Shown: positions 7,080-17,641 of the stretch, piece by piece
Position numbering within the stretch: the first letter of the stretch is position 1
Layout of the letters: the number at the start of each line of letters is the position of its first letter
IMG/VR virus record: IMGVR_UViG_3300044676_004015
Coordinates: 1 to 24,199 of that record
Length of the DNA stretch: 24,199 nt
Reading direction: 5' to 3' (one strand)
DNA from: a virus
Taxonomy: Duplodnaviria; Caudoviricetes
Program-made: the position numbers and the translations under genes
Notes under the pieces: generated by a model
What the model was told of the DNA's origin: nothing
The model's database searches: none
The model's input: only the letters and a program-made list of their open reading frames with translations

Positions 7080-8410
7080 TACATTTTCCCCACTTTTTCA
7101 GCGAACTCTTCACTCGTCATCAAATAAAGCTGCAAATCTTCTCCATTAGGAACCTTATACCCAAGTTTTTTGGCCACATCTAAAGCAACTTTAGAATCTT
7201 TATACTTATCAAGAAACAAAGCTCCCATTGCCAAAGTCATTGGAGTTCCTTTAGGGACTTTTTTATTCATTGCCTTTTGCATTCCAGTCTTTCCCATCTC
7301 TTTTTCTTCAAGCTCACGCATACGATAAACCGATCTGTCAAATACTGCACTTTCTAGGTGCTCGACAGCTTGCCGTGCCCTGCGATCAACGTCTTTTTTA
7401 GAGTAACCATATAACTCTTCGTCTGCAGCAGCTAACTCATCAAATTTTTTAAGATAAGCTTCTTCAAGAACAAGCTCACCTTCAAGCATTTCTTGAGTCG
7501 CAAGATTTGCTTCCATCGATTGCCCTACTTTAGGAAACATCGAAGCTAAACGCTCTTCAAACCATTGGTTTTGTCCTTTAGCAGAAACACGAGCCATATT
7601 ACTAAGTAAATTTTCTTTACCTGCCGTGATTAGCTGTGTTCCCTTTGAGTTTCTTAAAGCGTCTCCAGCTGCACCACCTATTGAATCAGCAATTTGGTTA
7701 ATGCTAAAAGATCCCACTTGCCCTGACTCTACTGCCAATCTTGAATGACGTAAGGCGCTTCTCTTTTTAGGTACCGCATCCCTAAGACTAGCTATTTTTT
7801 CTTCTTGTTTTGCAGCAAATTGAGTGTGATATTTTCGGTCTTCAGCGCTTATTTTTTGATCTATTTTTCTTTTTTCTATTTCTGCTTTTGCTGTTTCGCT
7901 AATTATTCTGTTTGGGTTTGATGAAAGATTAACCAAATCCGCATTCGAAAACGACTCCATCCTATCTTTTTTAGGGGCTTCCATAGACAGGTTTTTATCC
8001 TGTGTTAATATTGGGGATTCGCCTATTGCCTGTGAAGATGCATCGCCTTGATTTAATGTATTTGCTGACCTTCCAAAAATTTGATTGGCACCATATTGAT
8101 CCCCTTGTTGAGATATAGATTTTTTCATTACATCTTGTAGCAAGGATTGATAAGCCGTAGGATCGATGTTAGATGCTGCTAGTGCCGATTGTAACGCGCC
8201 TACATTTTCCATAGGCGATTTACTTTGATCATAATTATTCGCCCAATCAGAAACTAATTCCATTCCAACTCTTTGATCTTCTCGTTTTCTAGCCTCTTTT
8301 TGTGAAGCTAAGCGATTTTCAGCTCTTTGTTGCAACGCTCCAGCTAAAGCACCACCTGCTGTTGAAATCCCCTGGGAAAGCCCTGATAGATCCGGTATTA
8401 CAATAGGCAT
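7079..8410 (-). CDS. Putative internal virion/DNA ejection protein (443 aa)
   Basis: Gly/Ala N-terminus (GLSQGISTAGGALAGALQQ) and coiled-coil character; TAATG overlaps on both sides. Confidence 0.6.
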   Translation of the reverse strand: MPIVIPDLSGLSQGISTAGGALAGALQQRAENRLASQKEARKREDQRVGMELVSDWANNYDQSKSPMENVGALQSALAASNIDPTAYQSLLQDVMKKSISQQGDQYGANQIFGRSANTLNQGDASSQAIGESPILTQDKNLSMEAPKKDRMESFSNADLVNLSSNPNRIISETAKAEIEKRKIDQKISAEDRKYHTQFAAKQEEKIASLRDAVPKKRSALRHSRLAVESGQVGSFSINQIADSIGGAAGDALRNSKGTQLITAGKENLLSNMARVSAKGQNQWFEERLASMFPKVGQSMEANLATQEMLEGELVLEEAYLKKFDELAAADEELYGYSKKDVDRRARQAVEHLESAVFDRSVYRMRELEEKEMGKTGMQKAMNKKVPKGTPMTLAMGALFLDKYKDSKVALDVAKKLGYKVPNGEDLQLYLMTSEEFAEKVGKM

Positions 8411-9174
8411 TATTTTGCCTCCAATAGCTCAACTTTTTTAGATAGTTCTTTAATAGCATTGATAGACAATGCAAGTAATCCGTAAACATCAACCCCAAGG
8501 ACTCCATCAACTTGACCTTGAATTGCTTCAGGCATATCTTCAGCGATGAAACCAATTTTGTTTTTGCTATCCTTTACGAAATCGTCTTTGTAATCGTACT
8601 GCTTAACATCCATATTTGTTATAACATCCAAACCCGAATCGAAGTCTCTAACATTTTCCTTCACATGCTTAGAAGAGGCCATAATTCCTGCAGCACCCAT
8701 TTGACCACCGGCACCTATCAATGGCCCTAAGATACCCTGTCTTTGTTGTATGATTGGATCGAACTGCCTTTGACCAATCATACCTGTAAGACCTTGTAAA
8801 GCCTGTAAACGGTTTTGTTGCTGCCCTTGATAGAATTGGCCCATTTGTGAACCTAACATTGTGCTTAAATCTGCAGCCGATTGACCTAAAGCTTGGTTTA
8901 AAGCCGAAGATGATCCGGCACCGGCATCTATAAACCTTTGCTGTATCATTGGCATAACTTGTTGTTCATATTGCTGCAAAGCAGGGTCTACAAACGCTTG
9001 CTGAAATAAGCCTTGAAACTGATTTTGGTCATAAGGCTGTATGAATTGAGAAAAAGCTTCATTTGCTTGGGGTCCAAGCCCCTGTAAAGCTTGAGCTAAA
9101 TAACTAGATTGTTCACCTGTCATTAAAGGCGCGCTTCCTGATTGCTTAGCACTTCCCATTAGAGTAGAACCCAT
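8410..9174 (-). CDS. Putative DNA-transfer/ejection protein with C-terminal peptidase S74 intramolecular chaperone domain (254 aa)
   Basis: Q/G-rich helical N-terminal 166 aa, then SSKHVKENV...YDYK...IGFIAEDMPEAI...VDVYGLLALSINAIKELSKKVELLE, the S74 pattern ending in a coiled coil. Confidence 0.75.
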   Translation of the reverse strand: MGSTLMGSAKQSGSAPLMTGEQSSYLAQALQGLGPQANEAFSQFIQPYDQNQFQGLFQQAFVDPALQQYEQQVMPMIQQRFIDAGAGSSSALNQALGQSAADLSTMLGSQMGQFYQGQQQNRLQALQGLTGMIGQRQFDPIIQQRQGILGPLIGAGGQMGAAGIMASSKHVKENVRDFDSGLDVITNMDVKQYDYKDDFVKDSKNKIGFIAEDMPEAIQGQVDGVLGVDVYGLLALSINAIKELSKKVELLEAK

Positions 9175-9225: not shown

Positions 9226-9651
9226 TCAACACTCACTATGTTTCGGGTATGCGGTCATCCAATATATTTTTTTTAGTTTACAATCTTTTGCTATTTCTTT
9301 CGCCTTCTTTGATAATAAAGTTACAGCTTTTCCTTTACACCAGTATTTTTTATCCATAGAAAATGTTTGCACTACTAAAGACTTGCTTAAAGAGTCTACC
9401 TCACACCAAAACATGCCTATAACTTTATTTCCTTCATCAGCAATAACATAAAGCATAGATAGTGGATTAAGAACAGGGCCGTTCTCTGTTTGCCTCATAC
9501 AAATAAGTTCTTGGTATTTGTACCAATCATCCACTTCATAAGTTCTTTCACGTACCTGTTCAATAAGATCTTTTGGTATATGCATTGGCGTAAAGACTCT
9601 AATAAACTTAAGCTTATCAAAATCAACTTCTTTCGATTGACTGTCCGACAT
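9226..9651 (-). CDS. GNAT-fold virion assembly protein (P22 gp14/T7 gp13 position); C-terminus possibly frameshifted
   Basis: VIGMFWC...VQTFSMDKKYWCKGKAVTLL resembles GNAT motif A. ORF stops abruptly at HSEC, and a 19-codon -1-frame tail fills the gap to the next gene. Confidence 0.6.
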   Translation of the reverse strand: MSDSQSKEVDFDKLKFIRVFTPMHIPKDLIEQVRERTYEVDDWYKYQELICMRQTENGPVLNPLSMLYVIADEGNKVIGMFWCEVDSLSKSLVVQTFSMDKKYWCKGKAVTLLSKKAKEIAKDCKLKKIYWMTAYPKHSEC

Positions 9652-10177
9652 ATCTCACGTGTCCTTTTAATGTTCCAGCTGTTGCAACCGCTATATTAGC
9701 GACACTTCCACCCGATTGACTTTGTTGTATTCTCATTGTTCTTGCGCTATCATCTACGATTCCATAAGTCACGCCTGTAAAAGATAAAGATTCGGTATAA
9801 ACAGTTCCTGTAAATAAATTGCCATCTGTTTGAGCAGCTATGTATGGTAAATCTATTTGAAGAGTTCCTGTTCCTGTGTGACCTGTCCAAACTATATTAA
9901 ACCAAAAATCTACTAGGATACCCTTTCTTAACACCCACGCATTTTGTGTTGTATATGTACCAGCCCCTTGAGTGGAAGCTCCTCGTACTGTAGGAATAAA
10001 CTGACGACTGCCCGTTTCAGAACTTGTTCTATAGTCTCCGTTAACTGCGTTTGCCGTATCTTCATACTGCCTCTGTAAAGTGAACACTAAATCTTGTATG
10101 TATCCATCTAAACCTTCACCACCTTCTTTTATTTTATCGCTATGAACCGGAAGGACTGTTGTATTGGGAAGCGTCAT
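9623..10177 (-). CDS. Putative tail needle/minor tail protein (184 aa)
   Basis: N-terminal heptad helix (LDGYIQDLVFTLQRQYEDTANAVN) plus a beta-rich C-terminal domain; follows the nozzle with ATGA overlap, at the position of P22 gp26. Confidence 0.5.
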   Translation of the reverse strand: MTLPNTTVLPVHSDKIKEGGEGLDGYIQDLVFTLQRQYEDTANAVNGDYRTSSETGSRQFIPTVRGASTQGAGTYTTQNAWVLRKGILVDFWFNIVWTGHTGTGTLQIDLPYIAAQTDGNLFTGTVYTESLSFTGVTYGIVDDSARTMRIQQSQSGGSVANIAVATAGTLKGHVRYVGQSIERS

Positions 10178-12549
10178 ACAACCCTCCCACGCTCTTTAAA
10201 CCAAGGCATAAATGCGTGTATTTTAAGTGGCTTATTTTTTCCTTTGGATGTTATCTTTATTTTGTGTTGATAACCCGTCCCACCAGCATAAACCCTTTTC
10301 CACGCCTTTGATGATGCATAAGGTAATTCTGTTATTACGCCACCACTTTTATATATTCCGTAATCAGTTGAATCAACACCTATAGTAAAGTTGTTTACGT
10401 CTACTACTGTTACCGTAAAAGAAGCGCCATTTATAGCTTCCATTCCATCAACACCGTAAATATAAACTTCATCATCATCTAATAAACCATGATTGTTAGA
10501 GGTAACACATGCAGGGCTAGCTTGTGTTATATTTGAAACTTCACTTCTTTCAGTTAGATAAGGCAATAGGTTTATTGTCTTATCTACGTAAGGACTTTGA
10601 GAGTTATTTGCGTAAAAAGATACTGTAATATCTGTTTTCTCATGCGTATCAACAAATAAATCAATATATCCCAACTGTGCTTGTTTTCCCTGTTGCATCC
10701 ATGGGTTCCAAGCGGCTGAGTTTAATTCAAACGAAATGCTATTGGATGAAGTTAAAGCTGCCGTTCCACCTGAAGTGTAGGTTGTATATGTTGAAGAATC
10801 AACCCCGCTAAGCTCGAACTCATTACCCGATTTATTAGCTATTGTAAACTCTCTATTATTAATCTCTGTCATTCCACCCACATCAGATATAGTAATAATA
10901 TCACCGTCCACAAAGCCAATATCTCCCCCTATTGTTACTACTGCAGGCGAAGCCTTTGTCACACCGTATATATCAAATGAAAGTATTTTTTCATCGTCAT
11001 CACCGCCCTCTTCGAGTACATGAATTTCCCCAGATACATTTCCACCAAGAAAAATCTCAGAACTAGCATCCAAGTAAAAATCTCTAATAGTATCATCGCT
11101 AAAAGAATTGAGGGTTTTATCACCAAAATCTGCAATTGTAGAATCCGATGCTGCACCACCATAACCAAGAACGTTCATTGCGATATTATATTTAGAAAAC
11201 GCTTGTGAATCGTCATCATAAATTAAAGCGGCATCTATTTCCTCAGAGTCTAATTTTGGGTAAAGCATCCATAAACGTTCATTAGAATAACTTCTTTTTG
11301 CAAATACTTTTGCAAAATACTCGCTGTTTATCTCTTCATTAACAAAATCTTGTATTCTATGATCCACTCGTTTTGCATCGATCCCGTCTGTGGCTGTTAT
11401 TCCCCGCCTTCCGGCCGCTAAAACGTATCTGTCGAATTGAGCTGTGGTCATTTTCCCATCACAAGCTCTGAAATCGTTTAACTTATCCCATCTAAAAGGA
11501 AGGCCTGGATCGCTAGTGGGTCGTAAAGTCCATATGCTGTTTGTAAAATATACTATTAATGAATCTTGAAGGAACTGAGCACTTATTATGTGATCGCCTG
11601 TTGGCGCGTCTACAAAACCACCTTTACCTGCGGTATCATCATCCCATGCACCGGAAACTGAAGGGCCTTGAGCTTGGCACCAACGCGCCCTTTGTGGATA
11701 TGTATTCGAAGCCTCAATCGTATGTAGGCAAACTAAGCGTTGTTTGAAAGCGAATATTAATTTACACCCATTTAAATAGTTTCCACTACCGCTATTTATT
11801 TCAGGGCGAAAGGCTGCTGTTGCTGTACCACCGTCATAATAACGTATTCCATTTAATGCTGGTGGGCCTGCTGCGTATGCACGGCCATTAGTAAAATATA
11901 ATCTGTATTGTGTTGATGCTGCAGTTGATGCAGTTGAAGACCAATTAGCACTATGAATATAATCGTTGTTATCACTGCTAGCGTCCATAATATCAGTAGA
12001 GTCGATAGGATCAAAGTTTTCATTCGTTCCATTATATTTACACGCTCTTAGTTGATCAAATGCAATTAACTCTTTTACGTTTCCACTGTCAATGTAATTA
12101 TACAGTCCCATCACTCTAGTACCAGGAATGATATAAACATCACCAAGACTTGACCAAGCTGTAAAGGAGCTTGAATCTACATTTTCTAGTTCAAAGGTTC
12201 CACCAGCTCCACCTGTAACGTTTGCGACTGTATAACGATGACCATTTAATTGAGTAGTACCAACTATATTTCTTATTTCTACTACATCGCCGTTAGTTAA
12301 ACCTGTAACATCAGCAAGCGTAATTACACAGGGATCAGCTAAAGTTACACCAGTAATAACCCAATTTGATTGGTCTTGATAAACAGTGTCGCCAAGCTTT
12401 ACAAAACCCTCCCTTTTTTCAACAGCGCCATGCCTTATATGCCCATTTACAATATCCGTAAATGCATCTTGTGGTAATAACCAAGGACTTAGATCAGTAT
12501 CTAATCCAGTGGCAAAGGGAGCAATTAAAAAGGCCGTGTATCCTGTCAT
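10174..12549 (-). CDS. Tail nozzle/DNA stabilization protein (P22 gp10/tail tubular B-like, about 791 aa) with three FCCH-like inserted repeats
   Basis: Beta-propeller-like composition, FKQRLV...RARWC motif, and position after the adaptor. Start is ATG 12549 (GGGGA RBS, ATGA overlap with the HNH stop), not 12594. Confidence 0.75.
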   Translation of the reverse strand: MTGYTAFLIAPFATGLDTDLSPWLLPQDAFTDIVNGHIRHGAVEKREGFVKLGDTVYQDQSNWVITGVTLADPCVITLADVTGLTNGDVVEIRNIVGTTQLNGHRYTVANVTGGAGGTFELENVDSSSFTAWSSLGDVYIIPGTRVMGLYNYIDSGNVKELIAFDQLRACKYNGTNENFDPIDSTDIMDASSDNNDYIHSANWSSTASTAASTQYRLYFTNGRAYAAGPPALNGIRYYDGGTATAAFRPEINSGSGNYLNGCKLIFAFKQRLVCLHTIEASNTYPQRARWCQAQGPSVSGAWDDDTAGKGGFVDAPTGDHIISAQFLQDSLIVYFTNSIWTLRPTSDPGLPFRWDKLNDFRACDGKMTTAQFDRYVLAAGRRGITATDGIDAKRVDHRIQDFVNEEINSEYFAKVFAKRSYSNERLWMLYPKLDSEEIDAALIYDDDSQAFSKYNIAMNVLGYGGAASDSTIADFGDKTLNSFSDDTIRDFYLDASSEIFLGGNVSGEIHVLEEGGDDDEKILSFDIYGVTKASPAVVTIGGDIGFVDGDIITISDVGGMTEINNREFTIANKSGNEFELSGVDSSTYTTYTSGGTAALTSSNSISFELNSAAWNPWMQQGKQAQLGYIDLFVDTHEKTDITVSFYANNSQSPYVDKTINLLPYLTERSEVSNITQASPACVTSNNHGLLDDDEVYIYGVDGMEAINGASFTVTVVDVNNFTIGVDSTDYGIYKSGGVITELPYASSKAWKRVYAGGTGYQHKIKITSKGKNKPLKIHAFMPWFKERGRVV

Positions 12550-13334
12550 AATATCCCCAAATGTGTACATATTTTTTTCAAGTGAACTTTCCACTCAAAT
12601 AGTGAAAGAGAGTGCTTACCGACATTACATTTTCGACAACATGGAACCACATTGTCCTTCGTGTATCCTTTTGATGACTCTACTCTATCGATTCCGCTAT
12701 ATAAGAAAATTCTTTCTTCATTGAGAATTTTTGAATATTTAACATTAAATTGCTGACTCGGAAAATCGCCACAGTATGCACAATTGCTCTCCGTCAATTT
12801 TGCAAACAATTCCTTCGTTAGACAAAAGTCTATTTTCCTTCGCTTTGCTTGATTTTTTGAATGTGTGAATAAACTTTGAAGTGCCGTTGTTTTTGCATCC
12901 TTAATTTGCCAACACCCACATGTTTTTGACGCTCCACTTACAACACTGCCACCTAAAAGCTCTTTTTCATTTCCACAATCGCAACGACAAAGATATTTAT
13001 TTCCATTCCAATCTTTTGGATTTTCTTTCTCTATTCTCTTCAACACCGTCCAGCTATTAAACTTTAGCCCGGTTAGATCCCGCTCTCTTAGGCATCCACA
13101 ACTTTTAGTTCCACCAGACAATAAATGATTTGCTCTCACACTTTTATTTACTCCACAAGCACATTTACAAACCCAAAAAGCATTACCTCCTTTTTTTTCT
13201 TTATCTCTAAATAACACTTTCAAATTTCCAAAAACCTTTCCAGATAACTCTATCAATCTACTCATAAACATACCGCCTTTATAGCAGTATAACATATATT
13301 GATCAAAAGGAGCTATTAAAAAAGGCTGGTACAT
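12546..13334 (-). CDS. Free-standing HNH-type (His-Me finger) homing endonuclease with two N-terminal Cys-rich repeats
   Basis: Repeats GKVFGNLKVL..WVCKCACG..TKSCGC and GLKFNSWTVL..YLCRCDCG..SKTCGC; C-terminal CAYCG..GIDRVESSKGYTKDNVVPCCRKCNVGK. Start is ATG 13334 (TAATG-coupled) or internal ATG 13271/13265. Confidence 0.85.
   Translation of the reverse strand: MYQPFLIAPFDQYMLYCYKGGMFMSRLIELSGKVFGNLKVLFRDKEKKGGNAFWVCKCACGVNKSVRANHLLSGGTKSCGCLRERDLTGLKFNSWTVLKRIEKENPKDWNGNKYLCRCDCGNEKELLGGSVVSGASKTCGCWQIKDAKTTALQSLFTHSKNQAKRRKIDFCLTKELFAKLTESNCAYCGDFPSQQFNVKYSKILNEERIFLYSGIDRVESSKGYTKDNVVPCCRKCNVGKHSLSLFEWKVHLKKICTHLGIL
13278..13306 (-). promoter_or_regulatory. Putative sigma70 promoter for the HNH gene
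   Basis: TTGATC (13306-13301), 17-nt spacer, TATAAA (13283-13278) with TGn extension; ATG 13271 lies 6 nt downstream. Confidence 0.45.
13305..13334 (-). repeat. Imperfect direct repeat of the nozzle 5' end (MYQPFLIAPF); partner copy at 12514-12549 (MTGYTAFLIAPF)
   Basis: TACCAGCCTTTTTTAATAGCTCCTTTTG vs TACACGGCCTTTTTAATTGCTCCCTTTG: 22/28 nt identical, flanking the HNH gene. Confidence 0.85.
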
Positions 13335-13900
13335 TACATTGGCCCCACTGCAAACCATCCAAAGGCAACGCCACCGCTAGGCACCTGGCCATTCCACGAT
13401 CTAGCGTTAAATCCGGATGCTGTTATATCCGATGCCCCCCATTGTCTAGGGCTTGATCCCGTTATTGGGCTGTTGTAGGGCGTTGTCGTTAAACTCCATG
13501 CTGTACTACTAAACGTTTTAGGAAAAGTAACAGCTTTTGTTTGCGTTCCAGCGCTCATAGTACCGCGTCCCCACTGCATTAATAAACCTGGTGATAAATA
13601 TACGTATCCACTTTGAGCAAGCGATCTATCCGTAAAGCTTAACTGACTAATCACTGAATCTTGATCAATCCCAAATAATTCGGGATTTCCCGAACCATCA
13701 TCTTTACAATATGTTATGTAAGCTTCCGATATTGCAGTGGGATCATTAGATACACCTAAAGGCGTTCGATTAGCATAGTTTGTTGCTTGAGGCTTAAATG
13801 TACTATCAGCCTCTTCAATTGCTGTCCAATTAGGTCTTATTACAGAGCCTAAAGTTCTTAATTTATTTGTATCAGTTGGTTTAGTAGTATCCCAAGCCAT
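13334..13900 (-). CDS. Small tail protein with C-terminal gp53-like/fibre-tip domain (188 aa)
   Basis: GLLMQWG...VTFPKTF...WFAVG pattern typical of phage fibre C-termini; GAGG RBS. Confidence 0.65.
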   Translation of the reverse strand: MAWDTTKPTDTNKLRTLGSVIRPNWTAIEEADSTFKPQATNYANRTPLGVSNDPTAISEAYITYCKDDGSGNPELFGIDQDSVISQLSFTDRSLAQSGYVYLSPGLLMQWGRGTMSAGTQTKAVTFPKTFSSTAWSLTTTPYNSPITGSSPRQWGASDITASGFNARSWNGQVPSGGVAFGWFAVGPM

Positions 13901-15215: not shown

Positions 15216-15809
15216 TTAGGTCACAGATTCATCTCCGCGACATACCATAACCATAACAGCACTGTTAGCTCCAACAGGGCCTGTTCCAACTGTAATACCA
15301 CGTCTAGCAAGGTTTTCAATTGGAATAGCAGCTCCGGAAGAATCGCTAACACGAGTTACCTTTCCACCGGAAACCCAAACAGCACCCGAAGTGGTATTTG
15401 TACCAGTTGTAATCGTTGTAGCTGTAATAGATGCAATTGTGTACTGAGCATTCAACGTTGCTCCAGAACCACTTTCAGCAATGCCATCAACACTTATAGT
15501 GTCACCAGCGGCAAAACCATAAAGTGCGGTGTCATCCACTGTTATCACACCAGGATTAGCATTAGTGAAGGCACTAATAGTTGCTCCATAATTCGAACTT
15601 TCACTTAGTGGTGTAAAACCGTTGGTTGTAGTGATAGTTCCAGCATCAACGTCTAAATAAGACGCATCGTCCATTTGATTGTTCCAGTACCAGCTTCCAC
15701 CATTAGTGGTATCTACTGTTGTTGCTTCAGCAACTGTGAAACCAACATCTTGATCTCTTGCAACTGCTGAAGCTGCATTGGTCCATTTTATTGTCTTGAC
15801 CTGAGCCAT
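15216..15809 (-). CDS. Probable capsid decoration/minor capsid protein with one FCCH-like insert (197 aa)
   Basis: Directly after the major capsid gene and before the terminator; T/S/G-rich; ISAFTNANPGVITV..GFAAGDTISV..VSGG matches the nozzle repeats. Confidence 0.6.
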   Translation of the reverse strand: MAQVKTIKWTNAASAVARDQDVGFTVAEATTVDTTNGGSWYWNNQMDDASYLDVDAGTITTTNGFTPLSESSNYGATISAFTNANPGVITVDDTALYGFAAGDTISVDGIAESGSGATLNAQYTIASITATTITTGTNTTSGAVWVSGGKVTRVSDSSGAAIPIENLARRGITVGTGPVGANSAVMVMVCRGDESVT

Positions 15810-15851: not shown

Positions 15852-16532
15852 TCATGAATGTGAGGCTTGAAGATTTAGCATAAATGCATCATTGAGGATG
15901 CGACTTACGAATGGGTGTTGAAACCCAACTGTTCCACGTTGATGCAATGGATCGGCGCTTCCTGCGGAACCTAAAGGCTCAACATAGAACTCTCCACTTT
16001 CACCACCTAAATGCACAACCGCATAAGCTTCTTTACCAACAATAAAGTTGTCATATACGGGAGTTGCAGCAGCAGAAACGCTTCCTACACTGCTATAAAG
16101 CCATCGTACGTTTCCGGTTGTTCCCCACTCCGAATCTAAAACAGACTGTTGATTTGGGTACTGTGAGCTGTGAACGAAGTTAGAAACAGCCTCTAAATCG
16201 TCTAAAAGTGCAGTGTCCATAAAACCCCAAAATGCTGGTCTAACAGGAACAGTACCAAATGCATCACGCCCTGGAACTATCTCTGAGATCATTTCAGCAT
16301 CGTTTCCAAGCAATTGGAAAACGGCTGCATCAATATCTGCTTTAGTTAGCTCTGTAGGTGTTGATCCGTTAGAACCATTGCTACAAGCTAGTGTGGAGGC
16401 TGTTGACGCTAAAACATCGCGTGTAATCTCATCAATTGTCTGTCCAAGGTTTTGAGATAAAAGTCTCGCTGACTCATTGAGCACGCGGTCTTCTACTGTT
16501 AGTTCAACCTGGTTTGTTATCGTTACAAAGTT
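15852..16532 (-). CDS. Major capsid protein, N4-gp56 family, exon 2 (226 aa)
   Basis: The frame extends 16 codons upstream of the track start (NFVTITNQVELTVEDR). Motifs EWGTTGNVRW and GSADPLHQRGTVG are typical of the family. Confidence 0.9.
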   Translation of the reverse strand, partial: NFVTITNQVELTVEDRVLNESARLLSQNLGQTIDEITRDVLASTASTLACSNGSNGSTPTELTKADIDAAVFQLLGNDAEMISEIVPGRDAFGTVPVRPAFWGFMDTALLDDLEAVSNFVHSSQYPNQQSVLDSEWGTTGNVRWLYSSVGSVSAAATPVYDNFIVGKEAYAVVHLGGESGEFYVEPLGSAGSADPLHQRGTVGFQHPFVSRILNDAFMLNLQASHS

Positions 16533-17641
16533 CTTTTTGTTACTACTCTTTCGAGCGGCTAGTCATTTCTGCTAGCTCCCCCTGTTACCAAAGGGTTCGG
16601 ACTATATCTTCAGGAGTGTAATCCTGCGTCACTTCTTTTGTTTTTCCACATTTTGGAATGTGTTTTTCCGGAGCAAATCTTGCTGCAATGCATCGTTAGT
16701 TTTCCTGGTTTACGGGTAAACTCTTTTGAGCATTGTAAGCAATTAAATTTACGATTTTCTTTTTTTTCATCGTAATATTTAACATGAGATTTTCGAAGGG
16801 ATTTTTCATTACAACTATGACAATTTTTAGCTATAGAGAATTTCTTAACTTCAAACTCTTTTGAGCAAGTTACACATGTGACCTTTTTCAAGTCTGTGTA
16901 ATTTTTGTCATTTTCATAAAAAGATGGATCAATTTTTCTTAACATACATGAAGGAACGTATTCCCTTATTATATCAAAAAACTTATCTCTATCTTTTCTC
17001 CTTAATCTCATCCAATAATAGGTTTTCCCATTTGAATTCTTCTTAATAGTTCTGAATGTTACACCAAACTTTTTATGAATCATTCTACATAACAACTCAT
17101 TTTCAACTTGGTTAAACGCATGACTGCATATAAAAGGGTTTCTCCAACCCATTTCTCCAGCCAATACTCCATCATCCATATACCACAAAGCTAACCCAAG
17201 TGGGGTTAAGCATTTCATAACATGCTCTGTAACGGTCTTTCTTTTGTCGTAATACATATGCTCGTATAGCTTATTGTAAAACGGGTGGGAAAGTGTCCTT
17301 ACAATTACATTTGGAAACACTTTATTATTTAATGTTGTTGATGATTCGGTTATTTTAGTCTCATTCAAATAGCTTAGAATATCACGCTTAAATTCAGCGT
17401 ATTCCTTATCCGCTAACTTACTACAAGAGGTAAAATACTGTGTTTTTCTTCCTTTTGTTAAAGAAGGTATACACCCGTCACCTAACATCATACCTATTAC
17501 TGCTCCTTTAAATTCCAATCTGTTCTTAAACATAGTCTCTACACCTTCCTTTTCGGCTTGGCTCGGGATTGTCCTTTACGGAGTTTCCCCGAATTCAGTG
17601 ACATTTTACTACGGCAACCTCTAAGCAGCAAGCTTATCTAT
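16533..17641 (-). mobile_element. Group I self-splicing intron (1109 nt) in the major capsid gene
   Basis: Exon 1 ends UACGGU pairing with IGS GCCGUA (U-G wobble); terminal G at 16533; P10 AACUUU/GAGGUU; P3 GUCACU/AGUGAC; P4 UUCGGG/CCCGAG; P7 GACUA/UAGUC; S element AAGAUAUAGUCC (16599-16610); P9 stems with GNRA loops. Confidence 0.93.
16610..17533 (-). CDS. Intron-encoded LAGLIDADG homing endonuclease with C-terminal Zn-finger-like repeats (307 aa)
   Basis: Motifs VIGMMLGDG and LALWYMDDG; tail CVTCSKEF..CHSC and CLQCSKEF..CSKIC. Confidence 0.92.
   Translation of the reverse strand: MFKNRLEFKGAVIGMMLGDGCIPSLTKGRKTQYFTSCSKLADKEYAEFKRDILSYLNETKITESSTTLNNKVFPNVIVRTLSHPFYNKLYEHMYYDKRKTVTEHVMKCLTPLGLALWYMDDGVLAGEMGWRNPFICSHAFNQVENELLCRMIHKKFGVTFRTIKKNSNGKTYYWMRLRRKDRDKFFDIIREYVPSCMLRKIDPSFYENDKNYTDLKKVTCVTCSKEFEVKKFSIAKNCHSCNEKSLRKSHVKYYDEKKENRKFNCLQCSKEFTRKPGKLTMHCSKICSGKTHSKMWKNKRSDAGLHS

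What the first reader, a model, noticed from the sequence alone, without database searches (positions are those of the whole stretch)
12514..13334. Free-standing HNH gene that takes over the nozzle gene's original N-terminus and supplies a recoded replacement
Seen: the HNH ORF is bracketed by two copies of the nozzle start. The upstream copy (MYQPFLIAPF, 13334-13305) is TAATG-coupled to the preceding gene and runs in frame into the endonuclease. The downstream copy (MTGYTAFLIAPF, 12549-12514) has its own GGGGA RBS inside the HNH 3' end and an ATGA overlap. Within FLIAPF the copies differ only at silent third positions (ATA/ATT, CCT/CCC). Inference: the element inserted about 10 codons into an essential gene, captured its translation start, and repaired the gene without splicing by carrying a replacement N-terminus that may resist cleavage. 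Terminus-duplicating homing endonuclease genes are known from fungal mitochondria; I do not know of a described case at the 5' end of a phage tail gene.
Basis: partly seen in the sequence, partly recalled or inferred. Interest (0 to 1): 0.85.

Follow-up and report, generated by a model that had tools for sequence, protein, structure and literature searches.

The report
Nuclease gene duplicates nozzle gene start
In an uncultured phage, a nuclease gene sits about ten codons into the tail-nozzle gene, with the old gene start left in front of it and a second start overlapping its end, which likely keeps the tail protein whole without splicing and likely lets ribosomes run on through the insert.

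Summary
Real and not chance. A PacI-like His-Me ("HNH") nuclease ORF lies between two copies of the start of a T7-gp12/P22-gp10-type nozzle gene. The upstream copy matches the family consensus (YQPFLIAPF) and keeps the usual coupling to the preceding gene. In 111 of 113 readable relative junctions the nozzle follows that gene directly with no insert. Six of 349 related nucleases, all close relatives, begin with the same in-frame stub. One relative phage keeps only a 27-codon stub-plus-nuclease-tail mini-ORF, still in frame and coupled at both ends. Silent recoding is not a general feature (the relic's copies share 19 identical bases). An insert-free relative also carries the "replacement" YTA. 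Cleavage, immunity and expression are untested. It works like the fungal mitochondrial endonuclease ORFs that duplicate a gene end, but at the 5' end, in a phage. My ten paper searches found no phage description. This scan has noted the same layout in at least nine other genomes (unchecked notes). New variant of a known kind.

The parts
13334..13900 (-). Upstream tail-fibre-like gene (188 aa); its TAA overlaps the stub ATG (TAATG)
   Evidence: (PF21882 Gp53-like_C, E 4e-9)
13305..13334 (-). Native-type nozzle start left as a 10-codon stub (MYQPFLIAPF), in frame with the nuclease
   Evidence: same stub on nuclease relatives
13266..13304 (-). 13-codon open linker between stub and nuclease M24; carries the predicted control signals
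   Evidence: residues 1-17 and 19-24 have pLDDT under 50 in the model
13286..13294 (-). Extended -10-like motif (TGnTATACT), the only one in the window; candidate internal promoter
   Evidence: not called by the sigma-70 scan
13269..13291 (-). Predicted 9-pair hairpin that pairs the nuclease's own Shine-Dalgarno site
   Evidence: z -2.7 and -3.0; 71 of 3453 33-mers of the window fold as well
13272..13279 (-). Nuclease's own Shine-Dalgarno site, 6 nt before ATG M24 (13265)
   Evidence: duplex -8.4 kcal/mol versus -5.6 for the stub start; M24 invariant in alignment A3
12546..13265 (-). Nuclease body (239 aa): two Cys-rich repeats (CxC..SCGC) plus a PacI-like beta-beta-alpha-metal domain (D216 R217 Y224 N228 N237, CxxC pairs)
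   Evidence: phrog_374, E 4e-32; PacI 3ldy, E 2e-7
12554..12558 (-). Nozzle ribosome site GGGGA inside the nuclease's last codons
   Evidence: tail shared with relic L015
12514..12549 (-). Second nozzle start (MTGYTAFLIAPF), ATGA overlap with the nuclease stop
10174..12549 (-). Full-length tail nozzle gene (791 aa), T7 gp12 / P22 gp10 / VP1 gp16 type
   Evidence: (8zkk nozzle gp16, E 3e-10)

Best explanation
A free-standing nuclease gene of the PacI-like His-Me type sits at about codon 10-11 of the phage tail-nozzle gene, with the native-type start left upstream in frame and a second ribosome site and start overlapping its own end, and it likely spreads as an intron-less homing endonuclease that leaves the nozzle whole. 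Shown: the two starts, the empty state of nearly all relatives, the same stub on related nucleases, the shared tail-plus-ATG, and an in-frame deletion relic. Inferred: ribosomes finishing the upstream gene restart at the stub, read through the nuclease, stop at the ATGA and restart on the nozzle, so the coupling chain of the tail operon survives the insertion (about 0.6). Inferred: a second route starts at M24, shut by a hairpin on long transcripts and open on a short transcript from a promoter in the linker, as for T4 endonucleases (about 0.45). Inferred: the enzyme cuts empty alleles in co-infection (about 0.7), near the start codons, where loss of the Gln codon may protect the occupied allele (about 0.35).
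For: Empty alleles: 111 of 113 readable junctions have the upstream stop within 40 nt of the nozzle's FLIAP position and no nuclease (118 distinct junctions from 164 loci). The upstream copy is consensus: of 43 FLIAP junctions 27 read YQP, and their DNA is closer to the upstream copy in 36 and to the downstream copy in 2. Stub on relatives: 6 of 349 nuclease-family proteins score 19-36 bits against a nozzle-start profile, next best -1.3. They fall in five 90% clusters at 47-100% identity, with open in-frame linkers of 13, 17 and 22 codons; chance per length class is 0.10, 0.07 and 0.045. Relic L015/L016/L017: a 27-codon mini-ORF, MNYQPFLIAP fused to the nuclease's last helix, with TAATG upstream and ATGA downstream. 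Patchy distribution: the window's nozzle nests among empty alleles (97* clade), apart from the L015/P0024 clade (100*), whose sister P0022 starts MNYQP like that clade's stub; the tree needs two changes. Nuclease identity to P0124 is 65%, against 52% for the nozzles likely linked to them. Conserved catalytic-type residues align with PacI D92, R93, Y100, N113. L8 and P11 are invariant in 50 nozzles, so the start likely could not simply be lost.
Against: No activity or expression data. The nuclease has a stronger ribosome site of its own and residues 1-24 are low-confidence and outside the predicted fold, so the fusion may not be the main product. Stub counts are biased: an out-of-frame stub would be invisible in protein databases, and P0128 and P0256 (48-49%) cannot be judged. 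No DNA was obtained for any other full-length occupied allele; the P0024-P0124 link rests on a shared longest-contig length of 40,721. The empty allele L083 reads YTAFLIAPF and is the closest in 5' DNA to the window's downstream copy, so that copy may be an ordinary host allele. Loss of YQP in two readable replacements has a chance of about 0.14 (16 of 43, squared). The tree is the quick version; two changes could also be one old gain with losses if branches are wrong. The sigma-70 scan called no promoter on this strand.
Confidence: 0.72

Rival explanations
1. Same insertion, but the stub is not a working start: the nuclease is made from its own site at M24, and the stub persists as a homology arm, as the recipient's refreshed sequence, or as an operator overlapping the nuclease promoter (as for I-TevI).
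For: Canonical Shine-Dalgarno site 6 nt before an invariant Met; hairpin and extended -10 motif; residues 1-24 low-confidence in the model; the stub lies directly upstream of the candidate promoter. Operators resembling the homing site are described in PMC2988022 (passage).
Against: Frame is kept through three linker lengths and through the L015 deletion, which a silent stub would not need. The stub keeps TAATG coupling and a ribosome-site-like GGGG (-5.6 kcal/mol).
Confidence: 0.3
2. Polarity reversed in this lineage: the downstream copy from Tyr onward is the recipient's own nozzle, the element adds only site, ATG and two codons, and the stub came in with the element from a donor; the cut lies upstream or far away.
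For: L083 is empty, reads YTAFLIAPF, matches the downstream copy at 31 of 36 nt and has the highest 5' identity of 40 junctions. Window and L015 agree through the nuclease tail and ATG but only at 20 of 27 nt in the replacement. T4 free-standing enzymes cut far from their genes.
Against: Stub first residues vary (M-, MA-, MG-, MN-, MP-) as host starts do, and the MN stub matches the sister nozzle P0022. L083 could itself be a precise loss by recombination between the two copies.
Confidence: 0.25
3. One ancient insertion inherited vertically and lost many times, or a domesticated nuclease kept for a phage function; no current homing.
For: Occupied alleles are rare and cluster (20 of 500 shuffles as low). 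Base composition is close to the neighbours (GC3 0.27 versus 0.25-0.33).
Against: Absent from 111 of 113 junctions, including the window's nearest relatives; destroyed by deletion in L015; catalytic-type residues conserved; the nuclease is more conserved than its likely hosts.
Confidence: 0.1
4. A self-splicing intron or intein, or a misassembly.
For: The same genome has a likely group I intron in the capsid gene and an intein-like block.
Against: No Rfam match over 12300-13600 at E up to 1. The ORF fills the insert, leaving no room for a ribozyme core. The copies are in different frames with a stop between. An independent contig spans both junctions unchanged.
Confidence: 0.02

Closest known systems
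Mobile endonuclease ORFs (mORFs) of fungal mitochondria: Allomyces macrogynus atp6; Glomus atp6, atp9, cox2, nad3 (PMC3630166, passages); free GIY-YIG genes duplicated with the N-terminus of atp9 (PMC7487136, passage)
   Same: An intron-less endonuclease ORF enters a coding gene and a duplicated gene end keeps the gene complete; the ORF can be in frame with host sequence.
   Different: Here it is the 5' end, about 10 codons, in a phage virion gene; the nuclease is His-Me, not LAGLIDADG or GIY-YIG; a bacterial ribosome site and stop-start overlaps are part of the repair; a foreign origin of the carried end is not shown.
Gene-fracturing free-standing endonucleases: Aeh1 mobE in nrdA, T4 mobA in gene 60 (PMC2988022, section 17); fractured genes of Dassa et al. 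(PMC2677866, passages)
   Same: Insertion inside an essential gene; a hairpin over the nuclease ribosome site; the nuclease's 3' end overlaps and supplies the start of the downstream part.
   Different: Those hosts become two polypeptides that reassemble. Here the downstream gene is full length and the upstream piece is a 10-codon stub fused to the nuclease.
T4 seg/mob free-standing endonucleases, intronless homing (PMC2988022, section 7 and passages)
   Same: Optional nuclease gene between conserved genes; translational coupling by overlap (mobE UAAUGA); hairpin and promoter control.
   Different: Those lie between genes with no duplicated start reported in the passages read; their cut sites are far from the gene.
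R.PacI (PDB 3ldy; PMC3384342, passages)
   Same: Beta-beta-alpha-metal core with Asp-Arg, Tyr in place of the His base, two Asn and two CxxC pairs.
   Different: PacI is a 142-aa restriction enzyme; this protein adds two N-terminal Cys-rich repeats, likely for DNA binding.
ShiLan out-of-frame HNH insertion in actinophage methylases (PMC11855218, passages)
   Same: Phage HNH insertion in a coding gene that is neither intron nor intein.
   Different: ShiLan is read through in the host frame and hides the HNH in another frame; no second start is supplied.

Membership tests
Free-standing (intronless) homing endonuclease | Nuclease domain of a homing-endonuclease superfamily with intact catalytic residues | tested here: met
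   phrog_374 E 4e-32; PacI match E 2e-7 with D216, R217, Y224, N228, N237 invariant in 12 sequences
Free-standing (intronless) homing endonuclease | Optional at its locus: empty alleles exist | tested here: met
   111 of 113 readable junctions empty
Free-standing (intronless) homing endonuclease | Not inside an intron or intein | tested here: met
   No Rfam match; own stop; copies in different frames
Free-standing (intronless) homing endonuclease | Lateral spread at the same site | tested here: inconclusive
   Two changes forced on a quick tree; 65% versus 52% identity, with the linkage inferred
Free-standing (intronless) homing endonuclease | Cuts the empty allele, spares the occupied one, biased inheritance | not testable with these tools
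   Needs enzyme assays and mixed infection
Fungal mORFs with duplicated gene terminus | Endonuclease ORF inside a coding gene with a duplicated terminus that restores a full-length gene | tested here: met
   N-terminal here
Fungal mORFs with duplicated gene terminus | LAGLIDADG or GIY-YIG nuclease in a mitochondrial gene | tested here: not met
   His-Me nuclease in a phage: works like, is not a member
Fungal mORFs with duplicated gene terminus | Carried terminus is of foreign origin | tested here: inconclusive
   YTA is rare (1 of 112 proteins) but present in empty L083
Gene-fracturing endonucleases (mobE/nrdA type) | Host gene split into two functional polypeptides | tested here: not met
   Downstream nozzle aligns over 99-100% of its closest homologues; stub is 10 codons
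Gene-fracturing endonucleases (mobE/nrdA type) | Hairpin over the nuclease ribosome site | tested here: inconclusive
   Predicted, z -2.7 to -3.0; no homologous DNA for covariation
Gene-fracturing endonucleases (mobE/nrdA type) | Nuclease 3' end supplies the downstream start | tested here: met
   GGGGA and ATGA; shared with L015 at 41 of 50 nt
Canonical H-N-H motif (Pfam HNH) | His general base and Pfam HNH match | tested here: not met
   No Pfam family matched; Tyr at the PacI Y100 position
Podovirus tail nozzle (T7 gp12, P22 gp10 type) | Sequence or fold match to solved nozzles; position after the adaptor region | tested here: met
   8zkk gp16 E 3e-10; Foldseek E 4e-21 to 4e-10 to Pa223, VP1, T7 and P22 tail chains

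The most novel reading that the evidence does not exclude
A phage homing endonuclease repairs an essential virion gene purely at the level of translation initiation. It turns the host's discarded first ten codons into its own N-terminus and forms an obligate ribosome relay (upstream gene, stub-nuclease, nozzle) that selection keeps in frame even after the nuclease is deleted, leaving a 27-codon coupling peptide; the stub may double as the enzyme's operator. With the scan's other cases this would be a widespread, unnamed splicing-free life style of phage homing endonucleases.
Probability: 0.45. Interest if true: 0.72.

Novelty: new variant of a known kind. Interest (0 to 1): 0.58.

Why it matters
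It shows a way for a selfish nuclease to live inside an essential phage gene without an intron, an intein or a split protein. This locus family appears to hold several stages of the cycle: empty alleles, full elements, an in-frame deletion relic and a possible precise loss. The relic makes a clean test of whether translational coupling through the insert is under selection. The duplicated start marks a candidate target for a large (over 7,000 representatives at E up to 1e-30) PacI-like nuclease family with no Pfam model. It also explains annotation errors: gene callers extend the nozzle upstream (798 and 806 aa) or give the nuclease a tail-protein N-terminus.

Tried and rejected
Single-sequence nozzle scan of viral contigs: nothing; the alignment-based scans worked. 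Five viral scans for another full-length occupied allele and one for the tail-ATG motif returned only distant nucleases or the L015 relic; none of 162 distant nuclease loci has a nozzle within 3 kb. An automatic search for duplicated starts around 80 distant nuclease loci gave only weak, uninterpretable scores. Reads: 8 of 24 listed runs were laid; no joint skipping the insert; coverage was patchy, so this says nothing about empty alleles in those samples. No RNA holder listed. Sigma-70 scan: 2 sites, both on the other strand, 3.0 expected. Folds of the nozzle start and of the relic were no better than shuffles. The nozzle model leaves residues 12-28 at low confidence, so it did not show a structural role for the start. 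The careful tree did not finish; the quick tree was used. Host not identified: four genome-bin contigs from unrelated taxa hold relatives at 42-48%. Silent recoding as the immunity mechanism was rejected as general (L015). ICP1 CapR and IPA-HNH papers gave no matching architecture in the passages read. No supplements were read; they could hold undescribed phage cases.
Full report
Observation. The window is part of a podovirus-like genome read on the minus strand: terminase, P22-type portal, capsid, adaptor-like gene, a 188-aa tail-fibre-like gene, the nuclease and a 791-aa gene. The copies match at 22 of 28 nt; the next best match in the window is 19. A contig from a run not marked as a possible source spans both junctions unchanged.

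The two genes. The 791-aa protein is a tail nozzle: its profile matches VP1 nozzle gp16 (E 3e-10), and its model (pLDDT 87.8) matches tail chains of Pa223, VP1, T7 and P22. The nuclease has no Pfam match but matches phrog_374 and R.PacI (E 2e-7; also the top fold hit, weak at E 0.009). By the alignment, D216, R217, Y224 and N237 line up with PacI D92, R93, Y100 and N113. PacI is described as having Tyr in place of the active-site His (PMC3384342, passages); that these four are its catalytic residues is recalled. Two Cys-rich repeats precede the nuclease domain; residues 1-17 and 19-24 are below pLDDT 50.

Which copy is native. Of 119 listed nozzle homologues, 112 could be placed; 41 read YQPFLIAPF and 1 reads YTAFLIAPF. 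Three scans gave 164 loci. After dropping duplicates and loci without the start, 118 distinct junctions remained. In 113 the upstream stop was visible, and in 111 it lies within 40 nt of the FLIAP position, with no nuclease at the junction. The exceptions are L015 and L103 (an unrelated non-coding insert). Among 43 FLIAP junctions (one is L015's own nozzle start), 27 read YQP, and the DNA is closer to the upstream copy in 36 and to the downstream copy in 2.

The architecture recurs. Six of 349 nuclease-family proteins carry a nozzle-like start, scoring 19-36 bits against -1.3 for the next best: the window's protein, P0241 (96%), P0122 (70%, MAYQPFLIAPL), P0242 (69%, MGYQPFLIAPF), P0243 (65%, MNYQPFLIAPF) and P0126 (47%, MPEKFLIAPF). 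All are in frame, with linkers of 13, 17 or 22 codons. Chance of an open in-frame linker is 0.10, 0.07 and 0.045 per class, but the classes share ancestry, and out-of-frame cases would be missed; P0128 and P0256 cannot be judged. The stubs end at or within the last codon of FLIAPF, which places the left junction there.

A deletion relic. L015, L016 and L017 (one junction sequence, three contigs) have an 83-nt insert: TAATG, then MNYQPFLIAPYEWKGHIKKICKHLEIL, then ATGA into MTAYAPFLIAPF. The tail matches P0243's end (EWKAHIKKICKHLEIL) and the window's tail at 41 of 50 nt. The nuclease body is gone, yet frame and both overlaps remain. A single deletion keeps frame one time in three, so this suggests, but does not prove, selection for read-through. 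The two copies there share 19 identical bases, so silent recoding is not required.

Spread. In a quick tree of 56 rows (50 different, starts removed), the window's nozzle nests among empty alleles (97* clade), apart from the P0023/L015/P0024 clade (100*), whose sister P0022 starts MNYQP like that clade's stub; two changes are forced. The window's nuclease is 65% identical to P0124, while its nozzle is 52% identical to P0024 and 66% to the empty L003/P0002. That P0024 and P0124 are neighbours is inferred from a shared longest-contig length, not read. This fits lateral spread; it is not proof.

The nuclease has its own Shine-Dalgarno site 6 nt before M24, which is invariant in six close relatives. 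Its duplex energy is -8.4 kcal/mol, against -5.6 for the stub start and -5.5 for the nozzle start (with a recalled anti-SD motif). The site is paired in a predicted 9-pair hairpin (z -2.7 and -3.0; the stretch was chosen after seeing the fold, and 71 of 3453 window 33-mers fold as well). The window's only TGnTATACT overlaps the hairpin's 5' arm, so a transcript from it would lack that arm. T4 and Aeh1 endonucleases are controlled this way (PMC2988022, passages). The sigma-70 scan did not call it. Two translation routes are therefore plausible, and capture of the start is likely rather than shown.

Against a designed replacement. The empty allele L083 reads YTAFLIAPF, matches the downstream copy at 31 of 36 nt, and is the closest of 40 junctions in 5' DNA. 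It may be a precise loss, or the downstream copy may be an ordinary host allele behind an element-supplied ATG. Both readable replacements lack the Gln codon that four of five stub clusters and the relic's stub keep; with 16 of 43 junctions lacking YQP anyway, that is only a lead for immunity.

Mechanism. Shown: anatomy, empty alleles, recurrence, relic. Inferred: the nuclease cuts empty alleles in co-infection and is copied in by repair; the carried ribosome site, ATG and duplicated codons keep a start whose L8 and P11 are invariant; ribosomes relay from the upstream gene through the stub-nuclease ORF to the nozzle. An intron is excluded by the lack of an Rfam match and of room for one, an intein by frame and stop.

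Known relatives and novelty. It works like fungal mORFs that carry a gene end (PMC3630166, passages; N-terminal atp9 cases mentioned in PMC7487136, passage) but is not a member of that group. It shares the hairpin and the start-supplying overlap with gene-fracturing phage endonucleases (PMC2677866, passages; PMC2988022, section 17) but does not split the protein. Ten paper searches and passages of PMC10448857, PMC3706429, PMC11855218, PMC7315562 and PMC8096241 showed no phage case of a duplicated start; the library lacks most subscription papers and I read no supplements. The scan's own notes list nine similar findings in other genomes, eight shown, none on this sequence; they are unchecked and are not support. 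Verdict: a real new variant of a known kind, well supported in anatomy, untested in biochemistry.

Noticed in passing
window 17902-15852 (minus): The major capsid gene is split after ..ARVDFYG by an insert of about 1.1 kb holding a LAGLIDADG ORF (17533-16610); the frame resumes near 16532. Weak group I intron match at 16578-16791 (E 0.0066, below the family threshold). Likely a group I intron.
   Followed up: partly
window 2098-1079 (minus), inside ORF 3151-170: Intein-like block of about 340 aa with a LAGLIDADG-like domain in a 993-aa tail-type protein; matches are below curated cut-offs. The genome thus seems to carry three kinds of homing element.
   Followed up: partly
L015:2419-2504: 27-codon mini-ORF: nozzle stub fused in frame to the nuclease's last helix, coupled at both ends.
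   Followed up: yes
L083, nozzle start near 2500: Empty allele with the rare YTAFLIAPF start; possible precise loss of the element or source of the second start.
   Followed up: partly
L103, about 215 nt upstream of the nozzle start: Non-coding insert between the upstream gene and the nozzle, unrelated to the nuclease; no Rfam match.
   Followed up: partly
P0016 and P0013 (database proteins): Nozzles starting MSGYQTGYTAFLIAPF and MTGYSGFLIAPF, resembling the window's second start; may be occupied or formerly occupied alleles; no DNA obtained.
   Followed up: no
window 10174-12549 and 15216-15809: Three E1-FCCH-like (ubiquitin E1 FCCH) domains inserted in the nozzle and a weak one in a 197-aa structural protein; nozzle homologues range from about 630 to 900 aa.
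   Followed up: no
window 9226-9651 and 8410-9174: GNAT acetyltransferase and a protein with a peptidase S74 chaperone domain in the tail region.
   Followed up: no
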